Assembly (NCBI GenBank): GCA_021323225.1
Contig: JAJTCH010000001.1
Coordinates: 689,120-753,119 of the forward strand
Source of the DNA: Rickettsiaceae bacterium
Lineage (GTDB): Bacteria > Pseudomonadota > Alphaproteobacteria > Rickettsiales > UBA1997
Length of the DNA stretch: 64,000 bases
Direction: 5' to 3'
The notes beneath the pieces were generated by a model, which worked only from the letters and a program-made list of their open reading frames with translations, was not told the DNA's origin and made no database searches. This document shows, one piece after another, positions 2,769 to 27,652 of this stretch. Every line of letters starts with the position of its first letter. Within the stretch, counting starts at the first letter, position 1. The translations under genes and the position numbers were made by a program.

Positions 2769-3308
2769 TTAACTAGTCACCACAACTAAAGCCGGCCTGA
2801 TTAATCTATCACCAATAATATATCCCGCCTGTATCACCTGTTTTACCACCCCACCCTCTTCTCCTTCGGCTGCTGGCAATTGAGAAATTGCTTCATGATA
2901 GTTATGGTCGAATTTTTCTTCCAAAGGATAAATTCTTTTGATGCCGTATTTTTCCAGAACCTTCACCATCTCCTTCTTGGTCATGATCATTGCATCGGCA
3001 AAATGTTTCACCGATGGAGATTTTTCAACATCTTCTGCCGGCAAATTTTCTGACGCCAAATAAAAATTTTCTACAACCAAAACCAAATCTCCGGCAAAGT
3101 TGGAAACAGCATATTTATTGGCTTTTTCAAGCTCTTCACGATTTCTTTTTCTGGTATTTTCTAACTCTGCCGCCAAACGCAGAAAGGAATCATTCAAGCT
3201 TTTATTTGCTTCTTCCAGCTTGGAAATTTTTGCCTCAAGCTCTTGGTTTTGATTTGGTCGTTCTTCAGTTTGGGTTTGTTCTGGATTATTATTTTGTTCT
3301 TCAGTCAT
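2769..3308 (-). CDS. grpE: nucleotide exchange factor GrpE
   Basis: Coiled-coil N-terminus; RLAAELENTRKR motif; C-terminal beta domain GYIIGDRLIRPALVVV. Confidence 0.9.
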   Translation of the reverse strand: MTEEQNNNPEQTQTEERPNQNQELEAKISKLEEANKSLNDSFLRLAAELENTRKRNREELEKANKYAVSNFAGDLVLVVENFYLASENLPAEDVEKSPSVKHFADAMIMTKKEMVKVLEKYGIKRIYPLEEKFDHNYHEAISQLPAAEGEEGGVVKQVIQAGYIIGDRLIRPALVVVTS

Positions 3309-4924: not shown

Positions 4925-5695
4925 GATCGGCACATGATCCGAAGGTTGGGTTTCGATTCTAAAATCTTTAAAGATCTCTGCTTTTTGTAAATTGTTTTTT
5001 AAATTTGGCGTGACCCAGATATGGTCTATTCTTCTGCCGCGGTTTGATATAAAAGGCTCCAAAGCACGATAACTCCACCAACTATAAAGTTTTTCTTCCT
5101 CGCCCAAAAGCGCTCTGTGGCTATCAATCCAAGCTAGACTGGCTCTTAGATTTTCCATTTTTTCCAGCTCAATTGGTGTGTGCGAAACAACTGTTAGCAT
5201 TTGTTTATGCGACCAAACATCATTGACTAGAGGCGCAATATTCATATCGCCAAGCATGATGATTTTGTCATCTTTGCTGTAGTTGGCAGCAAAATATTGA
5301 GTCATCCAATCCACAAATTTTAGCTTGAAGTCAAATTTGTTATTAAGCGTAATATCAGGAATATCGCCGCCCGCCGGCACATAAAAATTATGCAAAATCA
5401 CTCCATTTGGTAATTTAGCGGCAATATGTCTTTTATGTCCGGAATTTAAAATATCATATTTCTTAATATCGGTAAGCGGCACTTTTGATAGGATAGCAAC
5501 GCCATTATAGGATTTTTCCCCAATAAATTCGACAAACTCAAAGCCAAGATTTTTTACAAGCAAAAGTGGAAATTCGCTATCTTGAACCTTGGTTTCTTGG
5601 AGGCAAATAATGTCTGGATTTTGTGTTTTAACTAGCTTTTCTAAAAGAGGAAAACGCAAACGAAGGGAATTGATATTCCAGGAAATTATTTTCAT
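4907..5695 (-). CDS. xthA: exodeoxyribonuclease III (AP endonuclease)
   Basis: MKIISWNINSLR, CLQETK, GDMNIAP and C-terminal SDHVP motifs of the EEP/ExoIII family. Confidence 0.9.
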   Translation of the reverse strand: MKIISWNINSLRLRFPLLEKLVKTQNPDIICLQETKVQDSEFPLLLVKNLGFEFVEFIGEKSYNGVAILSKVPLTDIKKYDILNSGHKRHIAAKLPNGVILHNFYVPAGGDIPDITLNNKFDFKLKFVDWMTQYFAANYSKDDKIIMLGDMNIAPLVNDVWSHKQMLTVVSHTPIELEKMENLRASLAWIDSHRALLGEEEKLYSWWSYRALEPFISNRGRRIDHIWVTPNLKNNLQKAEIFKDFRIETQPSDHVPISIDFS

Positions 5696-17108: not shown

Positions 17109-18146
17109 ATGCTAAAAACTTCCGATTTCGATTTTCACTTACCGCAAGAATTAATTGCCAATCAACCGGCCAGTCCAAGAGATTCTGCGAGAATGCTAGT
17201 GTGGAAAGGCCAAAAAATAATTGATAAAAATGTTAGAGATTTAGCGGATTTTCTTGATGAAGGTGACGTGTTGGTTTTAAACGACACCAAAGTCATCAAG
17301 GCAAAATTAATCGGCAAAAGAGGTGAAGCAAAAGTTGAAATCAATCTCCACAAAAATCTCCAAAGCCAGATTTGGCAAGCTTTTGCAAAGCCAGCAAAAA
17401 GACTGAAAATTGGCGATAAATTTATTATCGCTGATGATTTTTTTGCTGTAGTTATTGCTAAGAATTCAGATGGGATTGTTGATTTAGAATTTAATGTCGA
17501 TGGCAACGACTTTTTCTCTAGGCTGGAAAAATACGGCCAAATGCCACTTCCGCCTTACATAAAAAAAGAAGCGACTTCAGAAGATAATCAAAATTACCAA
17601 ACAATTTATGCAGCAAATTCCGGTGCAGTTGCAGCGCCAACCGCCGGTTTACATTTTACTGAAGAACTATTTCAAAAATTGGAAGCAAAAGGGATAAAGA
17701 AAGTTTTTGTTACGCTAAATGTTGGAGCCGGAACATTCCTGCCGGTGAAGAGTGATTTTATAAAAGATCACCAAATGCATGAGGAATATTTCAGCATCAA
17801 ACAGGAAGCTTGCGATGTGATTAATGAAGCTAAAAAAAATGGGAAAAAAATTATCGCTGTGGGCACAACTTCTCTTCGGGTTTTAGAATCTGCTATTGAT
17901 GAAAATGGCCAACTGAAAGCTCAGAACAGAGAAACAAAGATTTTCATCCACCCGCCTTACAATTTCAAAATAGTTGATATTTTGATGACCAATTTTCACC
18001 TGCCAAAATCAACTTTATTCATGCTGATTTCTGCCTTTATCGGCAAAGAAAATGCTCACCAACTCTATAACCACGCCATCTCTAACCAATATCGCTTTTA
18101 TTCTTTCGGCGATGCAACTTTGCTATTTAAGCAATCAAAGGCATAG
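17109..18146 (+). CDS. queA: S-adenosylmethionine:tRNA ribosyltransferase-isomerase
   Basis: MLKTSDFDFHLPQELIANQP start typical of QueA; AAPTAGLHFT, VGTTSLRVLES. The ORF-track start at 16908 (TTG) runs through the repeat and is not used. Confidence 0.9.
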   Translation: MLKTSDFDFHLPQELIANQPASPRDSARMLVWKGQKIIDKNVRDLADFLDEGDVLVLNDTKVIKAKLIGKRGEAKVEINLHKNLQSQIWQAFAKPAKRLKIGDKFIIADDFFAVVIAKNSDGIVDLEFNVDGNDFFSRLEKYGQMPLPPYIKKEATSEDNQNYQTIYAANSGAVAAPTAGLHFTEELFQKLEAKGIKKVFVTLNVGAGTFLPVKSDFIKDHQMHEEYFSIKQEACDVINEAKKNGKKIIAVGTTSLRVLESAIDENGQLKAQNRETKIFIHPPYNFKIVDILMTNFHLPKSTLFMLISAFIGKENAHQLYNHAISNQYRFYSFGDATLLFKQSKA

Positions 18147-20130
18147 GGCAATCAAGGATCATGCAAAAGGCTCTAAATAGCTCAATTTCTGATATCAGCA
18201 CCTGGTCTTGAACAATGCAGGCTATGCAAAGACTCAATAATTTTTGCTTCTCCAGGGGATATAATTTTTCCAGCTTTTTAATTGCCTCATCCAATTTTGA
18301 AATAGTGATTTCACTTTTGTCTATAAAATAAAATTTATCAGCGTCTTTCTTGTCAGCCATTGCTTCTTTAAAATTATCTATCGCTTTAGCGCCAGATCTG
18401 GTGCCTTTGTGGATCAACAAAGACAAAAACAAACTCACTTCTTTTTCCAGATTATTCAAATTATAAGAGGCTTTAACCGGAATATTATTTTTATCAAACT
18501 CCCCCTCAAGACTCACTGACAAAATCTTGATCAGCATCCATTCAAAGAAATTGGTTTTGGAATCAACCCCAACCAATAATTCAATATTTCTTTTAAAATT
18601 CTGATATTGGAAAGGTGATAACTGCTTTAAAACCGGGATGCAAAGACTGATCAGGGCAATATAATATTTTTCTGCCAATTGGTGAATTTGCGGGCTTAAT
18701 TTTTGCACCAAATTAAGCACTTGGCCTTCAGAATTATTTTTTAAAATTTCTAGCTGTTGTTGATAAAAACTTTCTTCTTTCATCAGAATTAGCGAATAAA
18801 TAATCGCTCTGGCACCGAAAGTATTTGAGGTAGAATCTTTGATAAATTGCGGAATAGAAACAGTTAAATTGTGCGCCTTTTTTACCAATTCTTCATCAAT
18901 CACGCCAATAGTTTGGACCATGGCTCCTACCAATGAAACTATCGAACTTCTTTTATCAATCGAATTGTTATTTTTTATTTCTTCATCTGAAGCAAAAGTC
19001 TTTGGGGTTGGCTGGATGAATTGGCCATCCCAGTAAGGATCAACTTCCAATATCCTCTTTTCAAGAGGCGGATGAGTTGCCATTAGTGAGGACAAAGCAT
19101 TGTCTAACGCTGGCGCAAAAAACATGTGGCTAATTTCCGGAGCTTTTGCGTTAGTAATTTTTGAACCGAATTGACATCCGCCAATTTTTTTGAGAGCACC
19201 TGCCAAACCAAATGGGTTACGGGTAAATTGCACCGCACTGGCATCGGCCAAAGCTTCTCTTTTTCTACTAACCGATGCCTTAATTAAATTGCCGAAGAAA
19301 GTTCCTACATAGCCCACAATCATTAAAATAAAACCGGGAATAATTAATGTCTCTGATCCCAATCTTCCATATCTGCGGTTTCTGTATGTAATTATACTAC
19401 TGAGTTGTGCGGAATGATTATTCAAGTCCACTTTTATCCTGTTATGTATATCTCGCACCAAAAAATAGCCGGCCATTCCGATAACTAAAATGCCGTGCAA
19501 TATCGCTATCAGATTAATATTGAGACGGGCATCACCATTAAAAATATGGCTAAATTCATGGGCAATTACCCCTTGCAGCTCTTCCCGGTTCAAATTTTCT
19601 ATCGCACCGGATGTGACGCAAATAATAGCATCGCGCGCTGCAAAACCGGCCGCAAAAGCATTAATGCCATCTTCTTTAAGGATATAAACGGGAGGAACCG
19701 CAATGCCGGACGCAATTGACATTTCAGTGACAATATTAAGCAATTGTTTTTCCTGAAAATTTGTGGTGTCTGGCCAAATCATCCTGACGCCCATTTCTAT
19801 GGCAATCGCCTTACCACCACTTGCCAGTTGGAATCTTTTATAAATGCCGCAAATAACAATAAAAATGGCAACCGCAGCACCAATCTCAGAAAAGAGAATC
19901 CAATTAAAATTGATGAATAAATTATGAAATACTTGCTGAAAAGAAAGGCCGGAATAAGGATCAATATATATAATATTTCCCTCTTGATAATAAGAGTTTC
20001 GAAGCAGTGCCATGAAAAGCATTATCGATATATTAACAATGGCGGTAATGGCCAATACTGACAATATCAATAAAAAAATAAGCCTTCTGGTGACAGAACG
20101 CGCGCGGTCCTGCTTTTCAAAGAAGTTCAT
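18127..20130 (-). CDS. M48-family zinc metallopeptidase with long helical C-terminal extension
   Basis: N-terminal TM helices, HExxH in VIAHEFSHIFNGD, and about 300 aa of extra helical C-terminus. Adjacent to lemA. Confidence 0.75.
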   Translation of the reverse strand: MNFFEKQDRARSVTRRLIFLLILSVLAITAIVNISIMLFMALLRNSYYQEGNIIYIDPYSGLSFQQVFHNLFINFNWILFSEIGAAVAIFIVICGIYKRFQLASGGKAIAIEMGVRMIWPDTTNFQEKQLLNIVTEMSIASGIAVPPVYILKEDGINAFAAGFAARDAIICVTSGAIENLNREELQGVIAHEFSHIFNGDARLNINLIAILHGILVIGMAGYFLVRDIHNRIKVDLNNHSAQLSSIITYRNRRYGRLGSETLIIPGFILMIVGYVGTFFGNLIKASVSRKREALADASAVQFTRNPFGLAGALKKIGGCQFGSKITNAKAPEISHMFFAPALDNALSSLMATHPPLEKRILEVDPYWDGQFIQPTPKTFASDEEIKNNNSIDKRSSIVSLVGAMVQTIGVIDEELVKKAHNLTVSIPQFIKDSTSNTFGARAIIYSLILMKEESFYQQQLEILKNNSEGQVLNLVQKLSPQIHQLAEKYYIALISLCIPVLKQLSPFQYQNFKRNIELLVGVDSKTNFFEWMLIKILSVSLEGEFDKNNIPVKASYNLNNLEKEVSLFLSLLIHKGTRSGAKAIDNFKEAMADKKDADKFYFIDKSEITISKLDEAIKKLEKLYPLEKQKLLSLCIACIVQDQVLISEIELFRAFCMILDCPMPLIA

Positions 20131-20141
20131 TTGATGCAGAG

Positions 20142-20738
20142 CTAAAACGAAACTCTAGGAGCATTTTGCATGGCTTTGCTATCTTCAAATTCAAGCAAAG
20201 ATCCGTCTTCTTTTGCGCCAAAAAGGCTGGCAAAAATATTTTGCGGAAAGCTTTGTTTGTAAGTGTTATAAAGCATAACTTCATCGTTGTAAGCTTGTCT
20301 AGCAAAGGCAATTTTATTTTCCGTGCTGGTCAGTTCCTCAGAAAGCTGCATCATATTTTGATTGGCTTTCAAATCCGGATAGCTCTCCATCACCATATTG
20401 AATTTGCTCAAATTGCTTGCCAAAACACTTTCCGCATGGCCTAAATCTTGTATGGAAGACGCATTATTTGGATCGGAGGAGGCTTTGTTAAGAGCGTTAA
20501 CAGCGCCAGTTCTAGCTGCTGTAACGGCTTCCAAAGTGTTACTTTCATGCTTTAAGTAACCTTTGGCGGTTTCAATTAAATTTGGGATCAAATCATAGCG
20601 TCTTTTAAGCTGGACTTCGATTTGGGCAAAAGAATTTTTGATTCTGTTTTTAAAAGCAATAAGGCGATTGAAGACACTGACCAGATAAAATATAATGATA
20701 GCGACAATTGCGATAACGGAAATTAAGGCGGTGCTCAT
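20142..20738 (-). CDS. lemA: LemA family protein
   Basis: N-terminal TM helix then QIEVQLKRRYDLIPNLIETAKGY, the typical LemA core. Confidence 0.85.
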   Translation of the reverse strand: MSTALISVIAIVAIIIFYLVSVFNRLIAFKNRIKNSFAQIEVQLKRRYDLIPNLIETAKGYLKHESNTLEAVTAARTGAVNALNKASSDPNNASSIQDLGHAESVLASNLSKFNMVMESYPDLKANQNMMQLSEELTSTENKIAFARQAYNDEVMLYNTYKQSFPQNIFASLFGAKEDGSLLEFEDSKAMQNAPRVSF

Positions 20739-20773
20739 ATTGATTTGGGTTGGAGTTAGAGAAAAATAAAACT

Positions 20774-23491
20774 TTATTCGTAAGTATCAGCCTTTAAAAA
20801 AGGTATAATATCAAAAACCAGCGGCTTTTCACTATCTTCCAGAACCAATATTTTCCCGGCATTGCAGACATTTTGCAAATCAAGAATTATTGCAGAAATG
20901 TCGGATTTGCTATTGATATAAAATTTTTCCAACGGCGTTTTCATTGATAAATTATTATCCGATTTAAATTTGCGGATATTAAAAATCACTTCCTTGGCAA
21001 GCTCCCCAACTTTTATAGAATCTTCGTCCAGAATATAATCTTCCGATTTGCACCAACTTCCTCTTTGATGAATTGAGATTAATTTATTCGGGAAAATCGC
21101 CTGATAAAGCTCTTCAGAAACATGCGGAATGAAAGGCGCGAATAATTTAAGTAAAGCTTCCAGGCAGTGATAAAGCGTAATCAAACCACTTTGCTGGCCC
21201 GCAGCTATTTTTGCTTTTTCTTCCGCAGTTAAATCCAATTGCTTATATTTGTCAGCAGCAAGACCATAAGAACGCACTTTGACAATTTCTAAATAATTGT
21301 CACAAAAATCATTCCAGAAAAAATCCTCCACAGCCTGACGGGCTTTGGCATATTCGAATTCTTCAAATTCTTTTTCTGCCTTATTTATAGTTTGTGTCAG
21401 ACGACTCAAAATCCATAAATCAGCAGCTTCGTTGATGATTCTGGAAGCAACATCCTGTTTAGCAGTGCTTGGTTTATGAGTTAAATCAGCAAAATTCTGG
21501 CTAACAAATTTGGAAGCATTAAATAATTTGGTAATCAATTTTCCACCAATCTTGAACAGCTCCTCACTATAAGCAATATCTGCGCCCAGATTAGATGCTG
21601 AAGCCCAATAACGCACAACATCCGCACCCTTCTCTTCAATCAAAGATTGCGGAGTAATCACATTACCTTTCGATTTACTCATCTTGGTTTTATCCGCCGC
21701 TAAACACCAACCAGAAATCATCAAATTTTTCCATGGGATTTTATCCTCATGCAACATCGCCTTAGCAATAGTATAAAACGCCCAAGTACGAATAATCTCA
21801 TGCGCCTGCGGACGCATATCAGCAGGAAAAAGTTTTTCGTGACGCTGTTTATCAATACAGAAATCTTTGCTAATCCCTTTAGAAGAAAGTTGTGGAGAAA
21901 TTGAAGAAGTGGCCCAGGTGTCCATTACATCGGTTTCTGCATCCACTATCCATTCGATCCCATCCTTATCCGTAACAATTTTTCTACCATCTTTAAATTT
22001 TCCAGTATCAAAATATCCAGTTGGCAAATCTTTCAAAGGATCAACTGGCAGCTGTTCCAACGGAGCAACAATTATTGGAGCTATTGGCTTTTCATTGGCT
22101 TTTTGCTGATCAAATTTTCCACCAACATACCAACTATCTGCTCTTACTTGCTTTTCTTTCTCATCCTTTATTTCTAAATGCCAAACTGGAAATGGCACCC
22201 CAAAATAACGCTGACGAGAAATACACCAATCCCACGCTAAATTATCAATCCATTGCTCGACACGGATTTTCATATAGTCAGGATACCATTTGCATTCATT
22301 GGCTTTTGCTTTGAGCTGTTCTTTCTTATCGAGGATTTTTACGAACCATTGTGGCATTGTTAAAATCTCAATTGGAGCTCCAGAACGCTCGGCACATTTA
22401 ACAGAATGGGTAATTGGATTTGATTTTAGTAAAAGATTTTCACTGATTAAATTTGCAATTACATCTTCTCTTGCTTCTTTGATTTTTTTCCCAATTAAAG
22501 GAACAAAAAACTTTTCATGTTTCTCTTCTGTAGCTTTTATATAATTTTGATCCTTTTCGAATATCTCTTTCAAACTCTTTTCTAGGTAAGCAATTCTTCC
22601 ATCTTCACCGATCATGATTTTCAGATCTAACTCATGTTTCTGCCACCACTTGATATCGGTCTCGTCACCAAAAGTACAGCACATCACCGCACCACTTCCT
22701 TTATCCATCTGCACTAATTCATCAGGAATAATTGGAACTTTAACACCAAACAAAGCAGTGATTGCCTTTTTGCCATGTAAATTTTTATAACGAGAATCAT
22801 CAGGATGAACCATCACAGCAACGCAGGCAGGAAGTAGCTCAGGACGGGTTGTGGCAATAACAATTTCCCCACCACCTTCCACACCAAATTTGATGTCATG
22901 CATCGCACTTGGCATTTCTTTATCTACCAAATCGGCTTGTGATAAAGCAGTTCTATCGACACAATCCCAAAGCACCGGCGCAAATCTTCTTTCAACTAAT
23001 TTTTTATTAAACAAGTCAACAAAACTAGCTTGGGAAATTTTTTGAGATTCCTTGGAAATAGTTTGATATTTCTGGCTCCAATCAACTGAAAGCGCAACTG
23101 TGTTGAATAGATTTTCAAACTCAACCTCTGCAACATCTACAACTTTTTGGCATTCATTAACAAACTCTTCACGCGGCATTTGATTAGCTTTTTTGCCAAT
23201 AGTTTTCTCAACCAATCTTTCAGTCGGCAAACCATTATCATCAAAACCCATCGGATAAAAAACATCAAAGCCCTTCATGCGTTTGAATCTGGCGATGAAA
23301 TCTGCTTGGGTATAGCTAAAAATATGGCCCATATGGAGAAGGCCGGAAACTGTTGGTGGTGGGGTGTCGATTACGAAAGTTTGATTTTTCGGCAAATCAT
23401 TTTGCCATTTGTAAATTTGCTTTTCGGCCCAGAAATTTTGCTGTTTCTTTTCAGTTTGCTGCGGATTGTAGCGATCGGGAAGTTTAGACAT
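20774..23491 (-). CDS. valS: valine--tRNA ligase, type-2 (archaeal/actinobacterial-like) form
   Basis: IDTPPPTVSGLLHMGH...YPMGFDDNGLPTE N-terminus and KMSKSKGN; 905 aa; no long C-terminal coiled coil. Confidence 0.85.
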   Translation of the reverse strand: MSKLPDRYNPQQTEKKQQNFWAEKQIYKWQNDLPKNQTFVIDTPPPTVSGLLHMGHIFSYTQADFIARFKRMKGFDVFYPMGFDDNGLPTERLVEKTIGKKANQMPREEFVNECQKVVDVAEVEFENLFNTVALSVDWSQKYQTISKESQKISQASFVDLFNKKLVERRFAPVLWDCVDRTALSQADLVDKEMPSAMHDIKFGVEGGGEIVIATTRPELLPACVAVMVHPDDSRYKNLHGKKAITALFGVKVPIIPDELVQMDKGSGAVMCCTFGDETDIKWWQKHELDLKIMIGEDGRIAYLEKSLKEIFEKDQNYIKATEEKHEKFFVPLIGKKIKEAREDVIANLISENLLLKSNPITHSVKCAERSGAPIEILTMPQWFVKILDKKEQLKAKANECKWYPDYMKIRVEQWIDNLAWDWCISRQRYFGVPFPVWHLEIKDEKEKQVRADSWYVGGKFDQQKANEKPIAPIIVAPLEQLPVDPLKDLPTGYFDTGKFKDGRKIVTDKDGIEWIVDAETDVMDTWATSSISPQLSSKGISKDFCIDKQRHEKLFPADMRPQAHEIIRTWAFYTIAKAMLHEDKIPWKNLMISGWCLAADKTKMSKSKGNVITPQSLIEEKGADVVRYWASASNLGADIAYSEELFKIGGKLITKLFNASKFVSQNFADLTHKPSTAKQDVASRIINEAADLWILSRLTQTINKAEKEFEEFEYAKARQAVEDFFWNDFCDNYLEIVKVRSYGLAADKYKQLDLTAEEKAKIAAGQQSGLITLYHCLEALLKLFAPFIPHVSEELYQAIFPNKLISIHQRGSWCKSEDYILDEDSIKVGELAKEVIFNIRKFKSDNNLSMKTPLEKFYINSKSDISAIILDLQNVCNAGKILVLEDSEKPLVFDIIPFLKADTYE

Positions 23492-23519
23492 TATTTAGCG
23501 AATAAAGATGAGATGGATA

Positions 23520-23828
23520 TTACCAAACTTCCTTGCCGACTGGCTTGGTTTCAAATTCTTTGGAATTAGGACGATTTTTAGAATTAATCTTTTTGCACAT
23601 TTTTTCTAAGTCCATTTTTTCAACATCCGCCCAGAAATTACTAGAATTATCATCAACATCTTTCTGAATGACCAGTGTATTACTTTTAACAGTAAGGCTA
23701 ACTTTTGATCCTTTTTTTAGTCCAAGTAGATCTAGGACTTTTTTAGGAATTCTAAAGCCAACACTGTTTCCCCAGGAATTAAGTTCGGATTTAATCAGAT
23801 AATGTGTGTTTAAAATTGCTTTGGTCAT
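23520..23828 (-). CDS. mazE: MazE/ChpS-like antitoxin (AbrB/SpoVT fold)
   Basis: WGNSVGFRIPKKVLDLLGLKKGSKV swapped-hairpin motif. The C-terminus ...KPVGKEVW resembles the E. coli MazE ending ...DKEVW (recalled). Confidence 0.8.
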   Translation of the reverse strand: MTKAILNTHYLIKSELNSWGNSVGFRIPKKVLDLLGLKKGSKVSLTVKSNTLVIQKDVDDNSSNFWADVEKMDLEKMCKKINSKNRPNSKEFETKPVGKEVW

Positions 23829-23872
23829 ACTAACTTGTTAATTAAAGATTTTTGTGCTTATACGAAAATTTA

Positions 23873-23968
23873 TATTTCCCTATTTCCCTATTTCCCTATT
23901 TCCCTATTTCCCTATTTCCCTATTTCCCTATTTCCCTATTTCCCTATTTCCCTATTTCCCTATTTCCC
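23873..23968. repeat. perfect tandem array (TATTTCCC)x12; minus strand reads (GGGAAATA)x12
   Basis: Counted directly from the sequence: 12 contiguous identical 8-bp units, 96 bp. Confidence 0.95.
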
Positions 23969-23971
23969 TAT

Positions 23972-24003
23972 ATATATTTATATATTTATATATTTATATA
24001 TTT
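23972..24003. repeat. perfect tandem array (ATATATTT)x4
   Basis: Counted directly; begins 3 nt after the first array. Confidence 0.9.
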
Positions 24004-24091
24004 TGTCAATAATATGTTTATACATGTATATATTTATTGACTAATTTTTCTTTTTAAAAATAATCCAGATTTTTCACCTTATATATTCTAT

Positions 24092-24436
24092 ATGACTGGC
24101 TACAAGGCTCAAAGAGGGGATATTGTCTGGATTGATTTTGATCCACAATCAGGAAGAGAAATTCAAAAAAGAAGGCCAGCTTTAGTTATATCCTCAGGAA
24201 GTTATAATGAAAAATCCCATTTCATTATTGTTTGTCCAGTTACCAGCAAAGTTAAGGGCTATCCTTTTGAAGTAGCGATAAAACAGAAAGGAATAAACGG
24301 ATCAATATTAGCCGATCAAATTAAAAGCTTAGACTGCGTAGCTAGAAAAATTGAGTTTATTGAGAAGTGCAACCAAGAGTCTTTTGATAAGACATTAAAA
24401 ATTATAGCCTTAATACTAGATCTTCACAGAATTTAA
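24092..24436 (+). CDS. mazF: MazF/PemK-family endoribonuclease toxin
   Basis: RGDIVWIDFDPQSGREIQKRRPALVIS and KGYPFEV...LADQIKSLD align by eye with E. coli MazF (GDLIWVDFDP...RPAVVLS...KGYPFEV...LADQVKSI). Confidence 0.85.
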   Translation: MTGYKAQRGDIVWIDFDPQSGREIQKRRPALVISSGSYNEKSHFIIVCPVTSKVKGYPFEVAIKQKGINGSILADQIKSLDCVARKIEFIEKCNQESFDKTLKIIALILDLHRI

Positions 24437-24443
24437 GTAGAAG

Positions 24444-25817
24444 CTACTTCACCACCACTAAATTAGTAGTGAACCTACCGATAGTATGCAAATATAAGGT
24501 TCCATCAACCACGATTGGGCTGTGGAAAATTTGCTGGTCAAGTTTTTTGGTTTGCAAAATTTTGCCGTCCAAAGGCGAGATAACTAGCAATTCACGGTTA
24601 GAATTGGTCATGATTAAATTATCTCCAGCCATGATGATGCCATTATAAATAATTTTGCCGCTTTTGGCTTTTTTGCCTAAATATTTTTTGAGCTGGACAA
24701 ACCATTTAATGCCGCCGGTATTTTTATATAGGCAGATTAGTTGGTTGTCATTATTTACCAAATAAATGAAATCTCCGGCAATCCAGAAATCCGTAATCGA
24801 AGCTAGCTCTTTTTGCCACAAAATTGCGCCGTCGATAATTCTAATTGCCATCATCAATCCGCCATTGCCAATGGCGTAAACCACGTCATTTTTTATAACC
24901 GGAGTGGCATCAACATCATTTAGGATGAAATCAGAATTGTCGATTTTGCTGATATTTAGATCATAAACCCAGCCAACTTCGCCATTCTTTTTGTTTAGAG
25001 CGTAAACTTCACCCGATGAGTAGGAAGAAATCAGGTAATTTTTATAAAGAACTGGGTTGGCCGAACCTAAAATACCGGTTGCCTTTAAAATGCCGGAATG
25101 TGTCCAATTTATCTCGCCGGTTTTAGCATTTAGTGCATAAGTTTTATTGTCATTAGCGATAACAAAAACTTGATTGCCGTCAGAAATTGGTGCGGAAATT
25201 GGTATTGAAGAAATGGTTTTGCGCCAGATGATTCTGCCATCTTTGGCATTAACACATATAACCATATTGTAACCACTGGAGACAAAAACCTGGCCGTTAA
25301 AATAAGAAATTTTGCCGCTGGCTAAGCTTTTGATAAACCATTTATTGATGAGCTTTTTCTTCCAAATGACTTTGTAGGTAGATAAATCCCTGGCATATAA
25401 ATTGCCCTTGGCATCAAGAACATAAATTGCCTTAGCTTCATCAGTTTTTGGTTTTACCAATAAATTTTCATCCGAATTTGGTGAAGAAATAGCAGGCGCA
25501 AAAACTGCCCGGTCATTAAAGCCTGGCCTATAGCCAGCCCAGATTGAATCTAGGGAAGAAATGTGACTGGTAAAAGCAAAATTCTCGCTTCTTTGGTTAT
25601 TGTCATTATTGCTGCCAAACCAGGAATTATTATTGATTTGTTTTGGAAGTGAAATTTTAAGATCGGATAAAGCAGAATCGGCCTTGATTGATTCGATATC
25701 AGCAAAAACCGAAACGGCGTTTTTATCATCAATTTTTTTATCGGAAGCGCAGGAGGTTAGAAAAATTGCGCACAAAATTGCAGATGGAACCAATAAAAAA
25801 TTTCTCATTACTAGCAT
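24444..25817 (-). CDS. bamB: outer-membrane protein assembly factor BamB-like lipoprotein (PQQ-type beta-propeller)
   Basis: Lipobox LTSC. At least six blades with the x-A-x-D/N-x-x-T/D-G-x-x-x-W signature (e.g. NAKDGRIIW, NAKTGEINW, NKKNGEVGW). Confidence 0.7.
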   Translation of the reverse strand: MLVMRNFLLVPSAILCAIFLTSCASDKKIDDKNAVSVFADIESIKADSALSDLKISLPKQINNNSWFGSNNDNNQRSENFAFTSHISSLDSIWAGYRPGFNDRAVFAPAISSPNSDENLLVKPKTDEAKAIYVLDAKGNLYARDLSTYKVIWKKKLINKWFIKSLASGKISYFNGQVFVSSGYNMVICVNAKDGRIIWRKTISSIPISAPISDGNQVFVIANDNKTYALNAKTGEINWTHSGILKATGILGSANPVLYKNYLISSYSSGEVYALNKKNGEVGWVYDLNISKIDNSDFILNDVDATPVIKNDVVYAIGNGGLMMAIRIIDGAILWQKELASITDFWIAGDFIYLVNNDNQLICLYKNTGGIKWFVQLKKYLGKKAKSGKIIYNGIIMAGDNLIMTNSNRELLVISPLDGKILQTKKLDQQIFHSPIVVDGTLYLHTIGRFTTNLVVVK

Positions 25818-26608
25818 TATTTTTTATCTTCTTTTTTTTCCTCTTCAGACTTTTTTTCGTCTTTGGATTCAGTTTTAGCTTCAGTTTTTTCTTCAACTTT
25901 AGCTTTGTCTTTATCCGCTGATTCTTCAACTTCTTCGCCAAACCTTACTTTGTAAAGACCAAGCATTTCTTCGGTTCTTTTTTTCAAAGCGTCAGGAATG
26001 TCTTTGTTGGAATCTAATTCCTTAAAAATTTTCCCGGCTTCTTTAAAATTGCCGGCATTCCACTCAAAAATACCTTTTTGTTCAGTGACGTAATATTTAA
26101 GGGTTTTACTGTTTTTTTCTAAATCAGTTAACAACGCTCTGATCTTGTCATGGCTTTCTTTGTTATTTTGATTGATCAAAAATTTGATTGCCACCAAACC
26201 AGCATATTCTTTGATATATGGATCAAAATTTTTGCTTTTGCTGATTCTTAAATAAACATCAATTGCCTGTTCAATTTTTTTATCTTTAACAAGTTGAGAA
26301 GCATATTTTAAAGAAGCAATTTCCCTAACTCCGACAGGCGCCATGCTGTTATAAATTTTCTTCAAAGCTTCGTTGGATTTTTCCATCTCACCATTTTGCT
26401 CATCAACTAGTGCTTGATGCAAAATAGCAGAATATTTTTTGGATTGGACTTGGTTATAAAAATTAAAAGATAGGACCAAAACCAAAGCCAATAGAGCGAA
26501 CACCACCAAATAGATGATGGAGTTTTTATGTCTTTGCAAGCAAGCAATGATTTTCTCTTGAGTGAATTCAGATTTAACTTTTTCGCAAAATAAATTTAGC
26601 TTGTTCAT
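25817..26608 (-). CDS. membrane-anchored TPR-like protein, YfgM-like
   Basis: One TM helix (IIYLVVFALLALVLVLSF), helical repeats, K/E-rich tail. Lies directly upstream of bamB, as yfgM does in other proteobacteria. Confidence 0.5.
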   Translation of the reverse strand: MNKLNLFCEKVKSEFTQEKIIACLQRHKNSIIYLVVFALLALVLVLSFNFYNQVQSKKYSAILHQALVDEQNGEMEKSNEALKKIYNSMAPVGVREIASLKYASQLVKDKKIEQAIDVYLRISKSKNFDPYIKEYAGLVAIKFLINQNNKESHDKIRALLTDLEKNSKTLKYYVTEQKGIFEWNAGNFKEAGKIFKELDSNKDIPDALKKRTEEMLGLYKVRFGEEVEESADKDKAKVEEKTEAKTESKDEKKSEEEKKEDKK

Positions 26609-26611
26609 ATT

Positions 26612-27496
26612 CTAATTAGTGTTTTTTGTATAAAGACTTAAAGTGTTTTTAAGCAGGTAGGCAATAGTCATTGGACCAACACCACCAGGCACTGGCGTGA
26701 TAAATTTAGCAACCTGTTTTACGCTTTCAAAATCAACATCTCCGACCAGTCTGGTTTTTCCGCCACCAATATCAATACGATTTATTCCGATATCAATTAC
26801 TGTCGCACCTTCTTTTACCATATCGCCCTTCACTAACCCGGCAACACCCGTAGCGGTAAAAATAACATCAGCTAATAAACATTCGGCTTTTAAATCTTTA
26901 GTGTTGCTATTGGCAACCGTTACTGTGCAACCTTCTAGCATCAAAAGCCTGGATAAAGGACGGCCGACAATATTTGAAGAACCAATAACCAGAGTCTTTA
27001 AACCCTTAAGATTATTGCCCAAAGCTGATTTTAAAAGATGTACAGAACCAAGAGGAGTGCAAGGAATTATCGCCCCATCTTTTTCTCCAACTTCTCCGAT
27101 TGCAAGTTTACCAACATTGATGACATTAAAACCATCAACATCTTTTTTATGGTCAATATTGTGAATAACTTTTTTGCTATCAATATGTTTAGGAAGCGGC
27201 AGCTGGACTAAAATGCCATGGATATTTTCATCCTCATTTAGCTCGGTAATTTTTTGCAGCAGATCACTTTCTGAGATATCGCTGGAAAATTTATAAAGAA
27301 CGGAATTCATTCCAACCAAATGTGCAGCCTTTTCTTTATTGCTGACATAAACCTCGCTGGCAGGATCATTTCCAACTAAAATAACCGCTAAAGTGGGAAT
27401 TATATTATATTTTGCTTTAATTTGCTGAACTTCCTCGGCAATTTTTTGCTTCAAATCAGCAGCAATTTTTTTGCCGTCAATAATCTGTGCGGTCAT
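26612..27496 (-). CDS. folD: bifunctional methylenetetrahydrofolate dehydrogenase/cyclohydrolase
   Basis: MTAQIIDGKKIA start, GILVQLPLP, VGRPL, PVPGGVGPMT. ATG at 27496 preferred over the TTG at 27541. Confidence 0.9.
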   Translation of the reverse strand: MTAQIIDGKKIAADLKQKIAEEVQQIKAKYNIIPTLAVILVGNDPASEVYVSNKEKAAHLVGMNSVLYKFSSDISESDLLQKITELNEDENIHGILVQLPLPKHIDSKKVIHNIDHKKDVDGFNVINVGKLAIGEVGEKDGAIIPCTPLGSVHLLKSALGNNLKGLKTLVIGSSNIVGRPLSRLLMLEGCTVTVANSNTKDLKAECLLADVIFTATGVAGLVKGDMVKEGATVIDIGINRIDIGGGKTRLVGDVDFESVKQVAKFITPVPGGVGPMTIAYLLKNTLSLYTKNTN

Positions 27497-27652
27497 TATT
27501 CTGATTAGTTTCTTTTGGGAAATTCTTTTGGGAAACGGCAAAGCGTAATGGCTAAAAATTTTTAATTCCAGAACTTATTTTTAGAAGTTGTTTTTTAACT
27601 GTGAAATCTTATATTGTCCGCCTCTTTCGAACAAGCTTTAGCAAGATCCGTA

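What the first reader, a model, noticed from the sequence alone, without database searches (positions are those of the whole stretch)
23520..24436. mazE and mazF homologues arranged head-to-head instead of as a co-directional operon
A clear MazE-like antitoxin lies on the minus strand (WGNSVGFRIP swapped-hairpin motif, C-terminus ..GKEVW). A clear MazF/PemK-like toxin lies on the plus strand (GDIVWIDFDP..RPALVIS..KGYPFEV). Their start codons (23828 and 24092) face each other across 263 bp. In the canonical mazEF/pemIK/chpBIK modules I know, the antitoxin gene precedes and is translationally coupled to the toxin gene under one autoregulated promoter. Here the two genes must use separate divergent promoters, so the toxin:antitoxin ratio cannot be set by co-translation. 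The locus is wedged between two essential or near-essential genes, valS and bamB.
Basis: partly seen in the sequence, partly recalled or inferred. Interest (0 to 1): 0.65.

Follow-up and report, generated by a model that had tools for sequence, protein, structure and literature searches.

The report
Conserved head-to-head mazE/mazF toxin-antitoxin pair
A real MazE/MazF toxin-antitoxin pair has its two genes pointing away from each other instead of forming one operon, an arrangement kept in at least six related Rickettsiales lineages, apparently with one shared control site between the genes, so it is an unusual but recognisable variant of a well-known system.

Summary
mazE (23520-23828, minus strand) and mazF (24092-24436, plus strand) are intact and diverge across a 263-bp spacer between valS and bamB.

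It is not an assembly inversion. Five further lineages (MazF 59-76% identical) show the same valS-mazE><mazF-bamB layout, on independently assembled contigs that bridge the spacer.

Sixteen more distant Rickettsiales MAGs have folD-TPR-bamB-valS on one strand, with bamB next to valS and no mazEF. The pair is therefore a clade-specific insertion, since inherited vertically:
- Its identities track those of ValS and BamB.
- dN/dS is 0.08-0.19.
- The MazF catalytic Arg and Thr and the MazE C-terminal tail are kept.

The nearest outgroup homologues form ordinary co-directional mazEF operons.

All six spacers share an invariant palindromic block, GTTTATA[C/T]ATGTATA. It lies between two outward-facing -35-like boxes. 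My inference is back-to-back promoters with one shared MazE operator, and mazE co-transcribed with valS.

The mazE-proximal half of the spacer is hypervariable. In this window it holds a perfect (TATTTCCC)x12.4 repeat, and short-read assemblies break there.

Verdict: a new architectural variant of a known family. No published divergent type II module turned up in six full-text searches. Regulation and toxicity are untested.

The parts
20774..23491 (-). valS (valyl-tRNA synthetase, 905 aa). It starts 28 bp after the mazE stop and is probably co-transcribed with mazE.
   Evidence: ORF list. Pfam tRNA-synt_1 at 1.2e-80 plus Anticodon_1. The same short mazE-valS junction is seen in relatives.
23520..23828 (-). 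mazE-type antitoxin gene (102 aa). It has an N-terminal AbrB/SpoVT swapped-hairpin DNA-binding domain and a C-terminal MazF-binding tail ending in PVGKEVW.
   Evidence: Pfam MazE_antitoxin at 8.7e-8. PDB 7d2n_E at 1.3e-4 and E. coli MazE 1ub4_C at 0.035, N-terminal domain only. The C-terminal I81, N85, E100 and W102 are invariant against E. coli MazE and canonical outgroups. dN/dS is 0.08-0.16.
23829..24091 (.). Divergent intergenic spacer (263 bp, 23% G+C).
   Evidence: Spacer length ranges from 156 to 304 bp in the six lineages.
23873..23971 (.). Perfect octanucleotide repeat (TATTTCCC)x12.4. It is specific to this lineage, lies in the hypervariable mazE-proximal half of the spacer, and reads (GGGAAAUA)n on the mazE strand.
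   Evidence: TRF reports 100% matches. It is unique in the window: 11 matches against 0.01 expected. Short-read contigs end in it, and one carries at least 16.5 copies.
23971..24003 (.). AT-rich 8-bp repeat (ATATATTT, about 4 copies). The units resemble the left half of the conserved palindromic block.
   Evidence: TRF period 8, 73% matches over 23971-24037. There are 2-mismatch matches to the operator pattern at 23976 and 23984.
24004..24009 (-). -35-like box, TTGACA on the minus strand. Candidate -35 of the mazE(-valS) promoter.
   Evidence: Present as TTGAC[A/T] or TTGCAA in all six lineages, with a -10-like hexamer 16-17 nt downstream in 5 of 6. It is retained in L043 just outside the 220-bp deletion that removes the block and the mazF 5' end. 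Inference only; no TSS data.
24016..24030 (.). Invariant block GTTTATACATGTATA, containing the perfect 12-bp palindrome TATACATGTATA (24019-24030). Candidate shared MazE operator.
   Evidence: Identical apart from one C/T position in all six lineages, although synonymous divergence is about 0.7-1.2 or more and the rest of the mazE-proximal spacer cannot be aligned. It occurs once per locus in the 15 fetched loci that include the sequence upstream of mazF, and never in the 24 empty-site loci.
24002..24044 (.). Quasi-palindromic control region. Its outer inverted arms, TTTGTCAATAA and TTATTGACTAA, carry the two outward-facing -35-like boxes and flank the central palindrome.
   Evidence: Inverted repeat I14, 91% complementary; I11, a 28-nt extended palindrome.
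24037..24064 (+). Candidate mazF promoter: TTGACT, 16 nt, AATAAT. The -10 ends 27 nt before the mazF ATG.
   Evidence: Consensus scan, 10 of 12. The same TTGACT-16-(A/G)ATAAT is conserved 27-37 nt before the ATG in 5 of 6 lineages. Promoter-like sites in the region as a whole are at chance level, so the case rests on conservation.
24092..24436 (+). mazF-type endoribonuclease toxin gene (114 aa). It is the only plus-strand gene within the minus-strand array 18127-27541.
   Evidence: Pfam PemK_toxin at 1.2e-27. PDB 7bye_B at 6.5e-25 and E. coli MazF at 4.7e-18, with R28 and T51 aligned without gaps to E. coli R29 and T52. dN/dS is 0.08-0.19.
24444..25817 (-). bamB (457 aa). It is convergent with mazF, with 7 bp between the stop codons and no predicted terminator between them.
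   Evidence: Pfam PQQ_2 / BamB at 2e-50. Terminator scans.

Best explanation
This is a functional, vertically inherited MazEF-type type II toxin-antitoxin module in which the toxin gene is inverted relative to the antitoxin gene.

Origin. The module entered the bamB-valS junction of an ancestral co-directional folD-TPR-bamB-valS array once, in the ancestor of a small environmental or host-associated Rickettsiales clade. It has been kept under purifying selection since.

Neutralisation (inferred from homology). MazE neutralises MazF by wrapping its conserved C-terminal tail around the MazF dimer.

Transcription (inferred from phylogenetic footprinting). The genes are transcribed from two back-to-back promoters. 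Their -35 boxes are TTGACA on the minus strand at 24009-24004 and TTGACT on the plus strand at 24037-24042. These boxes flank a single invariant palindrome, TATACATGTATA. MazE binds there, probably together with MazF, and represses both directions at once. The toxin:antitoxin ratio is then set by relative promoter and translation strengths and by antitoxin turnover, not by translational coupling.

Link to valS (inferred). mazE is co-transcribed with the essential valS 28 bp downstream. The cassette therefore now supplies valS with a promoter, or at least lies within its transcription unit, and this would disfavour loss of the cassette.

Shown here: the gene identities, the arrangement and its conservation, the insertion, purifying selection, and the conserved cis-block.
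Inferred: binding, promoter use, co-transcription, toxicity.
For: **Identity**
- Pfam and PDB matches for both proteins.
- The MazF catalytic Arg and Thr align to E. coli R29 and T52.
- The MazE C-terminal ...I..N.....PVGKEVW aligns to E. coli ...ITPEN...KDKEVW.

**Arrangement is real and conserved**
- L004, L005 (with L006, L007, L010, L012 and L014), L015, L040 and L045 all show valS(-) mazE(-) >< mazF(+) bamB(-). They come from NCBI, ENA, JGI and Logan assemblies.

**Insertion**
- 16 of 24 related Rickettsiales loci have folD-TPR-bamB-valS on one strand, with bamB ending about 10-215 bp (median about 70 bp) before valS by tblastn coordinates, and no mazE or mazF.

**Vertical inheritance and selection**
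- Pairwise identities of MazE (0.76-0.87) and MazF (0.69-0.78) rank like those of ValS and BamB.
- dN/dS is 0.08-0.19 with dS of 0.7 or more.

**Departure from the family norm**
- The nearest outgroups are co-directional, overlapping operons: MazE 44% and 39% identical, MazF 56% and 51% identical.

**Control region**
- The invariant block, the flanking inverted -35-like boxes and the conserved TTGACT-16-RATAAT are described.
- The block is absent from empty-site loci.

**Decay cases**
- L043 deleted the block, the mazF promoter and about 43 mazF codons, yet kept the TGTCAA box, mazE and valS.
Against: - There are no transcript, binding or toxicity data.
- The -10 of the proposed mazE promoter is poorly defined in this window (AAATAT), and L004 has none with A2 and T6.
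- Sigma-70-like matches are at chance frequency in this AT-rich DNA: 5 found against 5.6 expected, and 37 against 33.
- The distance from the palindrome to the mazE ATG varies from 79 to 250 bp. An additional or alternative mazE-proximal promoter, or read-through from bamB, could therefore drive mazE-valS.
- L005 lacks the TTGACT-16-RATAAT promoter form.
- The MazE match to solved MazE structures covers only the N-terminal domain.
- Two lineages show decay (L043; a MazE frameshift in L041 and L042), so the module is not indispensable.
Confidence: 0.62

Rival explanations
1. Antisense or transcriptional-interference control. The ancestral operon transcript still reads from bamB through the antisense strand of mazF and the spacer into mazE-valS. 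Housekeeping-operon transcription would then both make MazE and silence mazF, by polymerase collision or RNA duplex formation. The conserved palindrome would play a secondary role.
For: - mazF is the only opposite-strand gene in the array 18127-27541.
- Only 7 bp separate the bamB and mazF stop codons, and no terminator-like site lies between bamB and mazE on the minus strand.
- In empty-site relatives bamB and valS are adjacent on one strand; in L016 they are 31 nt apart with no hairpin.
- E. coli mazEF itself carries an annotated antisense RNA, aMEF.
Against: - This does not explain why a 15-bp palindrome and a TTGACT-16-RATAAT element are conserved next to mazF.
- Some empty-site relatives (L039, L022) have a strong hairpin between bamB and valS, so ancestral co-transcription is not certain.
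- The terminator scan detects only canonical intrinsic terminators.
- This model can coexist with the shared-operator model.
Confidence: 0.2
2. Relic or domesticated pair. MazF no longer acts as a toxin, and the MazE-like protein is kept only as an AbrB-type transcription factor, or merely as a promoter-bearing leader gene, for valS.
For: - L043 lost the mazF 5' half while keeping mazE-valS.
- L041 and L042 have a frameshifted MazE tail.
- mazE lies 28 bp upstream of valS in the window.
Against: - mazF is intact in six lineages with dN/dS of 0.08-0.19 and the catalytic Arg and Thr retained.
- The MazE toxin-binding tail is invariant where mazF is intact.
- In the lineage that lost mazF, MazE has an 11-aa in-frame deletion. 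This fits relaxed constraint after toxin loss, that is, a functional link between the two.
Confidence: 0.1
3. Assembly artefact: a mis-join or inversion at the tandem repeat in this MAG.
For: In JGI sample 3300042904 and Logan SRR35179664, the contigs carrying exactly these proteins end inside the octamer or AT repeat. The junction in this strain is therefore hard to assemble.
Against: - In both broken contigs the 5' end of the gene faces the repeat. valS and bamB sit directly behind mazE and mazF, so a single-gene inversion is impossible.
- Five diverged relatives that lack this repeat bridge the spacer in the same orientation, in independent assemblies.
Confidence: 0.02

Closest known systems
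E. coli mazEF (chpA) module in the relA-mazE-mazF-mazG operon
   Same: - MazF fold, with the catalytic Arg and Thr aligned without gaps to E. coli R29 and T52.
- MazE swapped-hairpin N-terminal domain and a KEVW-type C-terminal tail.
- An A/T-rich palindromic sequence with TATAC/GTAT-like half-sites in the promoter region. E. coli has ...GATATATACTGTATCTACATATGATA.... That this is the MazE operator is from my own knowledge of Marianovsky et al. 2001, and the resemblance was not tested.
- It is embedded among housekeeping genes.
   Different: In E. coli, mazE and mazF are co-directional and share one base between stop and start (792 in locus L047), under one promoter. Here mazF is inverted, lies 263 bp from mazE, and needs its own promoter. 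MazE here is 102 aa against 82 aa, with extra N-terminal residues and a longer linker.
Nearest outgroup homologues (L048, L044, L046): uncharacterised canonical mazEF operons in metagenomes
   Same: MazE is 44% and 39% identical and has the same ...EFDTKPVGKEVW tail. MazF is 51-56% identical.
   Different: Antitoxin first, co-directional and overlapping. They are not located between valS and bamB.
Staphylococcus aureus mazEF upstream of the sigB operon (own knowledge, not checked here)
   Same: A mazE-led transcript continues into downstream housekeeping or regulatory genes, as proposed here for mazE-valS.
   Different: There mazE and mazF are co-directional and both lie on that transcript.
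Reverse-order type II modules (higBA, mqsRA, hicAB)
   Same: They depart from the antitoxin-first rule, and in some the ratio control does not rely on canonical coupling.
   Different: They are still single operons on one strand, and their toxin families are unrelated.
RacR / ydaS-ydaT of the E. coli rac prophage (PMC5700377, abstract seen)
   Same: The repressor gene and the toxin gene or genes are adjacent, and silencing the repressor raises toxin expression. The term 'divergently transcribed' occurs five times in that paper, but I did not read the passages.
   Different: RacR is reported as a transcriptional repressor only, not a protein-binding antitoxin, and the proteins are unrelated.
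Type I toxin-antitoxin loci with divergent or antisense antitoxin RNA
   Same: Toxin and antitoxin are transcribed from opposite strands, with possible antisense interplay.
   Different: The antitoxin is an RNA. Here it is a MazE protein.

Membership tests
MazEF / PemIK (type II TA, MazF-PemK toxin with AbrB-type MazE antitoxin) | Toxin with the PemK/MazF (CcdB/MazF) fold domain | tested here: met
   Pfam PF02452 at 1.2e-27, profile positions 1-109 of 109. PDB MazF chains from 6.5e-25 to 4.7e-18.
MazEF / PemIK (type II TA, MazF-PemK toxin with AbrB-type MazE antitoxin) | Catalytic residues equivalent to E. coli MazF R29 and T52 | tested here: met
   The gap-free alignment to 3nfc_A and 1ub4_A places R28 and T51 at those positions. 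Both are invariant in four aligned lineages.
MazEF / PemIK (type II TA, MazF-PemK toxin with AbrB-type MazE antitoxin) | Antitoxin with an N-terminal SpoVT/AbrB swapped-hairpin DNA-binding domain | tested here: met
   Pfam PF04014 at 8.7e-8, above cutoff. 7d2n_E at 1.3e-4. BLASTP against E. coli MazE at 2e-7.
MazEF / PemIK (type II TA, MazF-PemK toxin with AbrB-type MazE antitoxin) | Antitoxin C-terminal toxin-binding segment ending in a conserved Trp | tested here: met
   In the multiple alignment with E. coli MazE and three canonical or clade MazEs, I81, N85, E100 and W102 are invariant. This rests on sequence only; no complex was modelled.
MazEF / PemIK (type II TA, MazF-PemK toxin with AbrB-type MazE antitoxin) | Bicistronic operon with the antitoxin gene upstream, overlapping or abutting the toxin gene | tested here: not met
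   The genes are on opposite strands with starts 263 bp apart. The same holds in five relatives.
MazEF / PemIK (type II TA, MazF-PemK toxin with AbrB-type MazE antitoxin) | Autoregulation through a palindromic operator in the promoter | tested here: inconclusive
   An invariant palindromic block lies between two -35-like boxes in all six lineages. Binding and repression were not tested.
MazEF / PemIK (type II TA, MazF-PemK toxin with AbrB-type MazE antitoxin) | Toxin inhibits growth by mRNA or rRNA cleavage and is neutralised by the cognate antitoxin; the antitoxin is protease-labile | not testable with these tools
   Needs expression and neutralisation assays and RNA cleavage mapping.
NCBIfam equivalog 'endoribonuclease MazF' (NF007386) / 'antitoxin MazE' (NF007312, NF052488) | Score at or above the curated equivalog cutoff | tested here: not met
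   MazF scores 103.3 bits against a cutoff of 120. MazE scores 16.8-19.3 bits against cutoffs of 113-130. These are family members but not equivalogs of the E. coli or Agrobacterium proteins.
Phase-variable simple-sequence-repeat contingency locus | A perfect SSR placed within a promoter or ORF so that changes in unit number switch expression, with copy-number polymorphism within populations | tested here: inconclusive
   The array is a perfect 8-bp x12.4 repeat. Another assembly of the same proteins carries at least 16.5 copies at a contig end. The array lies outside the conserved promoter core and is absent from other lineages, so a switch function has no support so far.

The most novel reading that the evidence does not exclude
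The module has been rewired into a housekeeping transcription unit as a sensor-effector circuit. The MazF gene is embedded antisense in the folD-TPR-bamB-(mazE)-valS transcript. mazE and the essential valS share a MazE/MazF-controlled promoter. Operon transcription would then silence the toxin and supply the antitoxin, and the TA state would feed back on valyl-tRNA synthetase expression. This would be a type II module with a type I-like antisense layer and an essential gene as a regulated passenger. It would also be a natural test of whether translational coupling is needed for stable toxin:antitoxin ratio control.
Probability: 0.15. Interest if true: 0.7.

Novelty: new variant of a known kind. 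Interest (0 to 1): 0.5.

Why it matters
Type II toxin-antitoxin biology assumes one autoregulated operon, often with translational coupling. That assumption underlies conditional cooperativity, ratio control and addiction. My understanding, which I did not check here, is that most TA-finding software also requires co-directional neighbours.

This locus is a MazEF pair that has stayed intact, under purifying selection, in a divergent layout. It has done so across lineages as far apart as about 80% ValS identity. It therefore shows that the operon is not obligatory for long-term maintenance, and it offers a natural system for asking how the ratio is set without coupling.

It also illustrates how a TA cassette can become fixed in reduced Rickettsiales genomes. 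By inserting into an essential gene array it probably captured valS transcription.

On a practical level, co-directional-only TA predictors would miss such pairs. In addition, the octamer repeat is a reproducible assembly breakpoint.

Tried and rejected
1. **Assembly inversion or mis-join.** Rejected. Contig ends in the repeat looked suspicious at first, but five relatives bridge the spacer in the same orientation.

2. **Searching for clade members with the MazE alignment.**
   - In genome contigs it returned nothing. The clade is not among the GTDB species representatives held.
   - In metagenome contigs it also returned nothing.
   - Switching to a ValS alignment gave 24 Rickettsiales loci, all empty sites or lacking the upstream region.

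3. **A known structured RNA in the spacer.** Rfam gave no match at E <= 1. The minus-strand leader folds weakly (-12.4 kcal/mol, z = -2.65, mostly AU pairing) and the octamer array stays unpaired. No riboswitch- or terminator-like element is proposed.

4. **Intrinsic terminators insulating mazF or mazE.** None were found.

5. **An alternative antitoxin ORF next to mazF.** There is no room for one. The plus-strand ORFs in the spacer are translations of the repeat. No paralogue of either gene occurs elsewhere in the window.

6. **Literature.** Six full-text searches and four papers were checked. None described a divergently transcribed type II or MazEF pair. This is absence of evidence in an open-access library, not proof.

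7. **The octamer repeat as part of the conserved mechanism.** Rejected. It is lineage-specific, and other lineages carry different material at the same place.

8. **Target-site duplications or mobile-element remnants at the insertion junctions.** None were obvious on inspection. I did not test this rigorously.
Full report
**1. The observation**

- ORF 23520..23828 (minus strand, 102 aa) and ORF 24092..24436 (plus strand, 114 aa) have start codons facing each other across 263 bp.
- The minus-strand protein hits Pfam MazE_antitoxin at 8.7e-8, above the gathering score.
- The plus-strand protein matches PemK_toxin over the whole profile at 1.2e-27.
- NCBIfam ranks endoribonuclease MazF first for the toxin (7e-30), but below the equivalog cutoff. 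The MazE equivalogs score far below their cutoffs. These are family members, not orthologues of the E. coli proteins.
- valS (20774..23491, minus strand) starts 28 bp after the mazE stop.
- bamB (24444..25817, minus strand) ends 7 bp from the mazF stop.
- mazF is the only plus-strand gene in a co-directional minus-strand array that runs from 18127 to 27541 (M48 peptidase, lemA, valS, mazE, [mazF], bamB, TPR protein, folD).

**2.

The spacer contains a perfect octanucleotide array, (TATTTCCC)x12.4, at 23873-23971. It is unique in the window: 11 overlapping 16-mers against 0.01 expected. An AT-rich 8-bp repeat follows it.

Exact-protein look-ups show where short-read assemblies fail:
- In JGI metagenome 3300042904, mazE-valS and mazF-bamB lie on two different contigs (154 kb and 54 kb).
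- Both contigs end in these repeats. One carries at least 16.5 octamer units.
- A Logan contig ends the same way.

**3. Not an artefact: the layout is conserved**

The closest MazF homologues are 76, 73, 69 and 66% identical. A MazE homologue at 67% lies beside a MazF that is 59% identical. Together these come from five further lineages.

Contigs from NCBI, ENA, JGI and Logan bridge the spacer in all five, and all show valS(-) mazE(-) >< mazF(+) bamB(-). The loci are L004; L005 with L006, L007, L010, L012 and L014; L015; L040; and L045.

The broken contigs of the window strain are also consistent with this layout. In both, the 5' end of the gene faces the repeat, and valS or bamB sits directly behind.

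**4. Origin**

- The MazE family is tiny: 10 proteins among 5.8 billion.
- The two nearest outgroup MazEs (44% and 39% identical) and a 56%-identical MazF all sit in ordinary antitoxin-first, overlapping operons (L048, L044, L046).
- A ValS-alignment scan of GTDB species genomes returned 24 Rickettsiales-type MAG loci.
- In 16 of them folD, the TPR gene, bamB and valS lie on one strand. By tblastn coordinates bamB ends about 10-215 bp (median about 70 bp) before valS, and there is no mazE or mazF. These include the closest ones: L039 (ValS 79%) and L016 (ValS 72%, BamB 70%).
- The pair is therefore a clade-specific insertion into the bamB-valS junction.
- Pairwise identities of MazE (0.76-0.87) and MazF (0.69-0.78) rank exactly like those of ValS (0.80-0.87) and BamB (0.68-0.79) in the same four lineages. 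The cassette has therefore been inherited vertically with its neighbours.

**5. Is it a working toxin-antitoxin pair?**

This rests on sequence evidence only.

- dN/dS is 0.08-0.16 for mazE and 0.08-0.19 for mazF, at a dS of about 0.7-1.2 or more.
- MazF aligns without gaps to E. coli MazF, so R28 and T51 correspond to the catalytic R29 and T52.
- MazE matches solved MazE structures over the N-terminal DNA-binding domain only. A multiple alignment shows that the C-terminal segment (...I81..N85...PVGKE100-V-W102) is shared with E. coli MazE (...[21 protein letters not shown]) and with the canonical outgroups.
- No paralogue and no alternative partner ORF exists in the window.

Two lineages show decay of the kind expected for a true pair:
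- L043 is about 90% identical in DNA to L004. It has a 220-bp deletion that removes the palindromic block, the mazF promoter region and about 43 mazF codons, plus a frameshift. Its MazE carries an 11-aa in-frame deletion.
- L041 and L042 have a frameshift in the MazE tail.

**6. The control region**

Most of the spacer cannot be aligned between lineages. One block next to mazF is conserved in all six.

- The invariant sequence is GTTTATA[C/T]ATGTATA (window 24016-24030), containing the perfect palindrome TATACATGTATA.
- It is flanked by inverted arms TTTGTCAATAA (24002-24012) and TTATTGACTAA (24034-24044).
- The right arm is the -35 of a TTGACT-16-(A/G)ATAAT promoter-like element. It lies 27-37 nt before the mazF ATG in 5 of 6 lineages.
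- The left arm reads TTGACA on the mazE strand. A -10-like hexamer follows it at 16-17 nt in 5 of 6 lineages. This is weak in the window (AAATAT), and L004 has none with A2 and T6.
- The block occurs once in each of the 15 fetched loci that include the sequence upstream of mazF. It never occurs in the 24 empty-site loci.
- In L043 the deletion starts a few bases past the TGTCAAT box, so the box is kept.

Generic promoter scans are at chance level in this AT-rich DNA. The argument rests on conservation, not on the scans.

The E. coli mazEF promoter region read from NC_000913.3 also carries A/T-rich TATAC/GTAT-type palindromic sequence. That this is the MazE-binding 'alternating palindrome' is from my own knowledge. 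The resemblance is a lead, not a test.

**7. Mechanism proposed**

- Inferred: back-to-back promoters share one MazE (and MazF) operator between their -35 boxes, so both genes are co-repressed. The ratio is set by promoter and translation strength and by antitoxin turnover, not by coupling.
- Inferred: mazE is co-transcribed with valS. The gap is 28 bp in the window and 29-62 bp in three relatives (L015, L005, L004).
- A rival layer, or an additional one: no terminator-like site lies between bamB and mazE on the minus strand. Read-through from the ancestral operon would therefore be antisense to mazF and would also feed mazE-valS.
- Some empty-site relatives (L039, L022) have a strong hairpin between bamB and valS. 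Ancestral co-transcription is therefore not certain.

**8. The hypervariable half of the spacer**

The distance from the mazE ATG to the block ranges from 79 to 250 bp. Each lineage holds different material there:
- Window: (TATTTCCC)x12.4 plus ATATATTT repeats.
- L004: (TATTAAAA)x4.0. Its close relative L043 has about two units.
- L005: a 166-bp palindromic element with 73-nt arms, 81% complementary.

This region tolerates slippage and insertions, so it is not part of the conserved mechanism. The window's AT-rich units resemble the left half of the block, with 2-mismatch matches at 23976 and 23984. Whether MazE binds them is unknown.

No Rfam family matches the region, and the leader has no convincing structure.

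**9. Comparison with what is known, and novelty**

By protein features this is a MazEF/PemIK-family module. The one defining feature it fails is the operon architecture.

Six full-text searches and four papers were checked. None turned up a divergently transcribed type II or MazEF pair. The nearest analogies are:
- reverse-order operons (higBA, mqsRA);
- RacR with ydaS-ydaT;
- antisense type I systems;
- S. aureus mazEF upstream of sigB (own knowledge).

I rate it a new variant of a known kind. It is of moderate interest as a natural uncoupled TA module fixed inside an essential gene array of reduced Rickettsiales genomes. All of the regulatory and toxicity claims still need experiments.

Noticed in passing
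window 23873-23971; L002 1-133; L003 1-27: The perfect (TATTTCCC)n array is a reproducible assembly breakpoint. The window has 12.4 units. A JGI contig encoding the identical MazE ends with at least 16.5 units, and a Logan contig also ends inside the array. This suggests copy-number polymorphism, or an array longer than the assembler's k-mer in other samples.
   Followed up: partly
L005 2780-2945 (also L006, L007, L010, L012, L014): A 166-bp palindromic element (73-nt arms, 81% complementary, 20-nt loop) sits in the mazE-proximal spacer of this lineage. It looks like a small MITE- or RPE-like insertion.
   Followed up: partly
L004 3168-3199 versus L043 (reverse complement, about 190-210): A different perfect 8-bp repeat, (TATTAAAA)x4.0, occupies the same spacer position in L004. 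Its close relative L043 has about 2 units. 8-bp slippage-prone repeats therefore recur at this site in separate lineages.
   Followed up: partly
L043 1-290 (GCA_013558375.1 contig JACCDG011519215.1): mazF is a pseudogene here. A 220-bp deletion removes the palindromic block, the promoter and about 43 codons, and there is also a 1-nt frameshift. mazE (with an 11-aa in-frame deletion) and valS remain. The contig numbering (over 1.5 million contigs; L004's assembly has over 47,000) suggests that these bacteria were sequenced as passengers in eukaryotic genome projects. I did not identify the hosts.
   Followed up: partly
L041/L042 80-403: The MazE homologue has a frameshifted C-terminus, so the toxin-binding tail is read in another frame. 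The contigs start 79 bp upstream of mazE, so the state of mazF is unknown.
   Followed up: no
L039 about 3060-3090; L022 about 4950-4975: In relatives without the cassette, the bamB-valS intergenic region carries a perfect hairpin (for example TTTTTGTGCTACACGTAGCACAAAAA). It could be a terminator, an attenuator or a REP-like element. The closest empty site, L016, lacks it.
   Followed up: no
window 20774-23491 versus L004 288-2768 and L015 1910-4456: ValS length differs markedly among close relatives (905, 826 and 848 aa at 80-82% identity). There are lineage-specific insertions around window residues about 300-335 and 440-515 (alignment A3 has 1053 columns).
   Followed up: no
window 25817-26608 (minus strand): The 263-aa protein between bamB and folD gives a weak TPR_21 hit in relatives, and I read it as YfgM-like. 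It ends in a long Lys/Glu-rich low-complexity tail (..EESADKDKAKVEEKTEAKTESKDEKKSEEEKKEDKK). Its stop overlaps the bamB start.
   Followed up: no
L047 752-1151 (E. coli K-12 NC_000913.3 2911051-2911450): RefSeq annotates a small antisense RNA, aMEF (ameF), opposite mazE and the start of mazF in E. coli. This is relevant background for the antisense-control rival.
   Followed up: no
window 23520-24436: mazE and mazF have 33-34% G+C against 38% for the whole window and for valS and bamB. This fits a foreign origin that has not fully ameliorated, or simply the composition of small genes.
   Followed up: no
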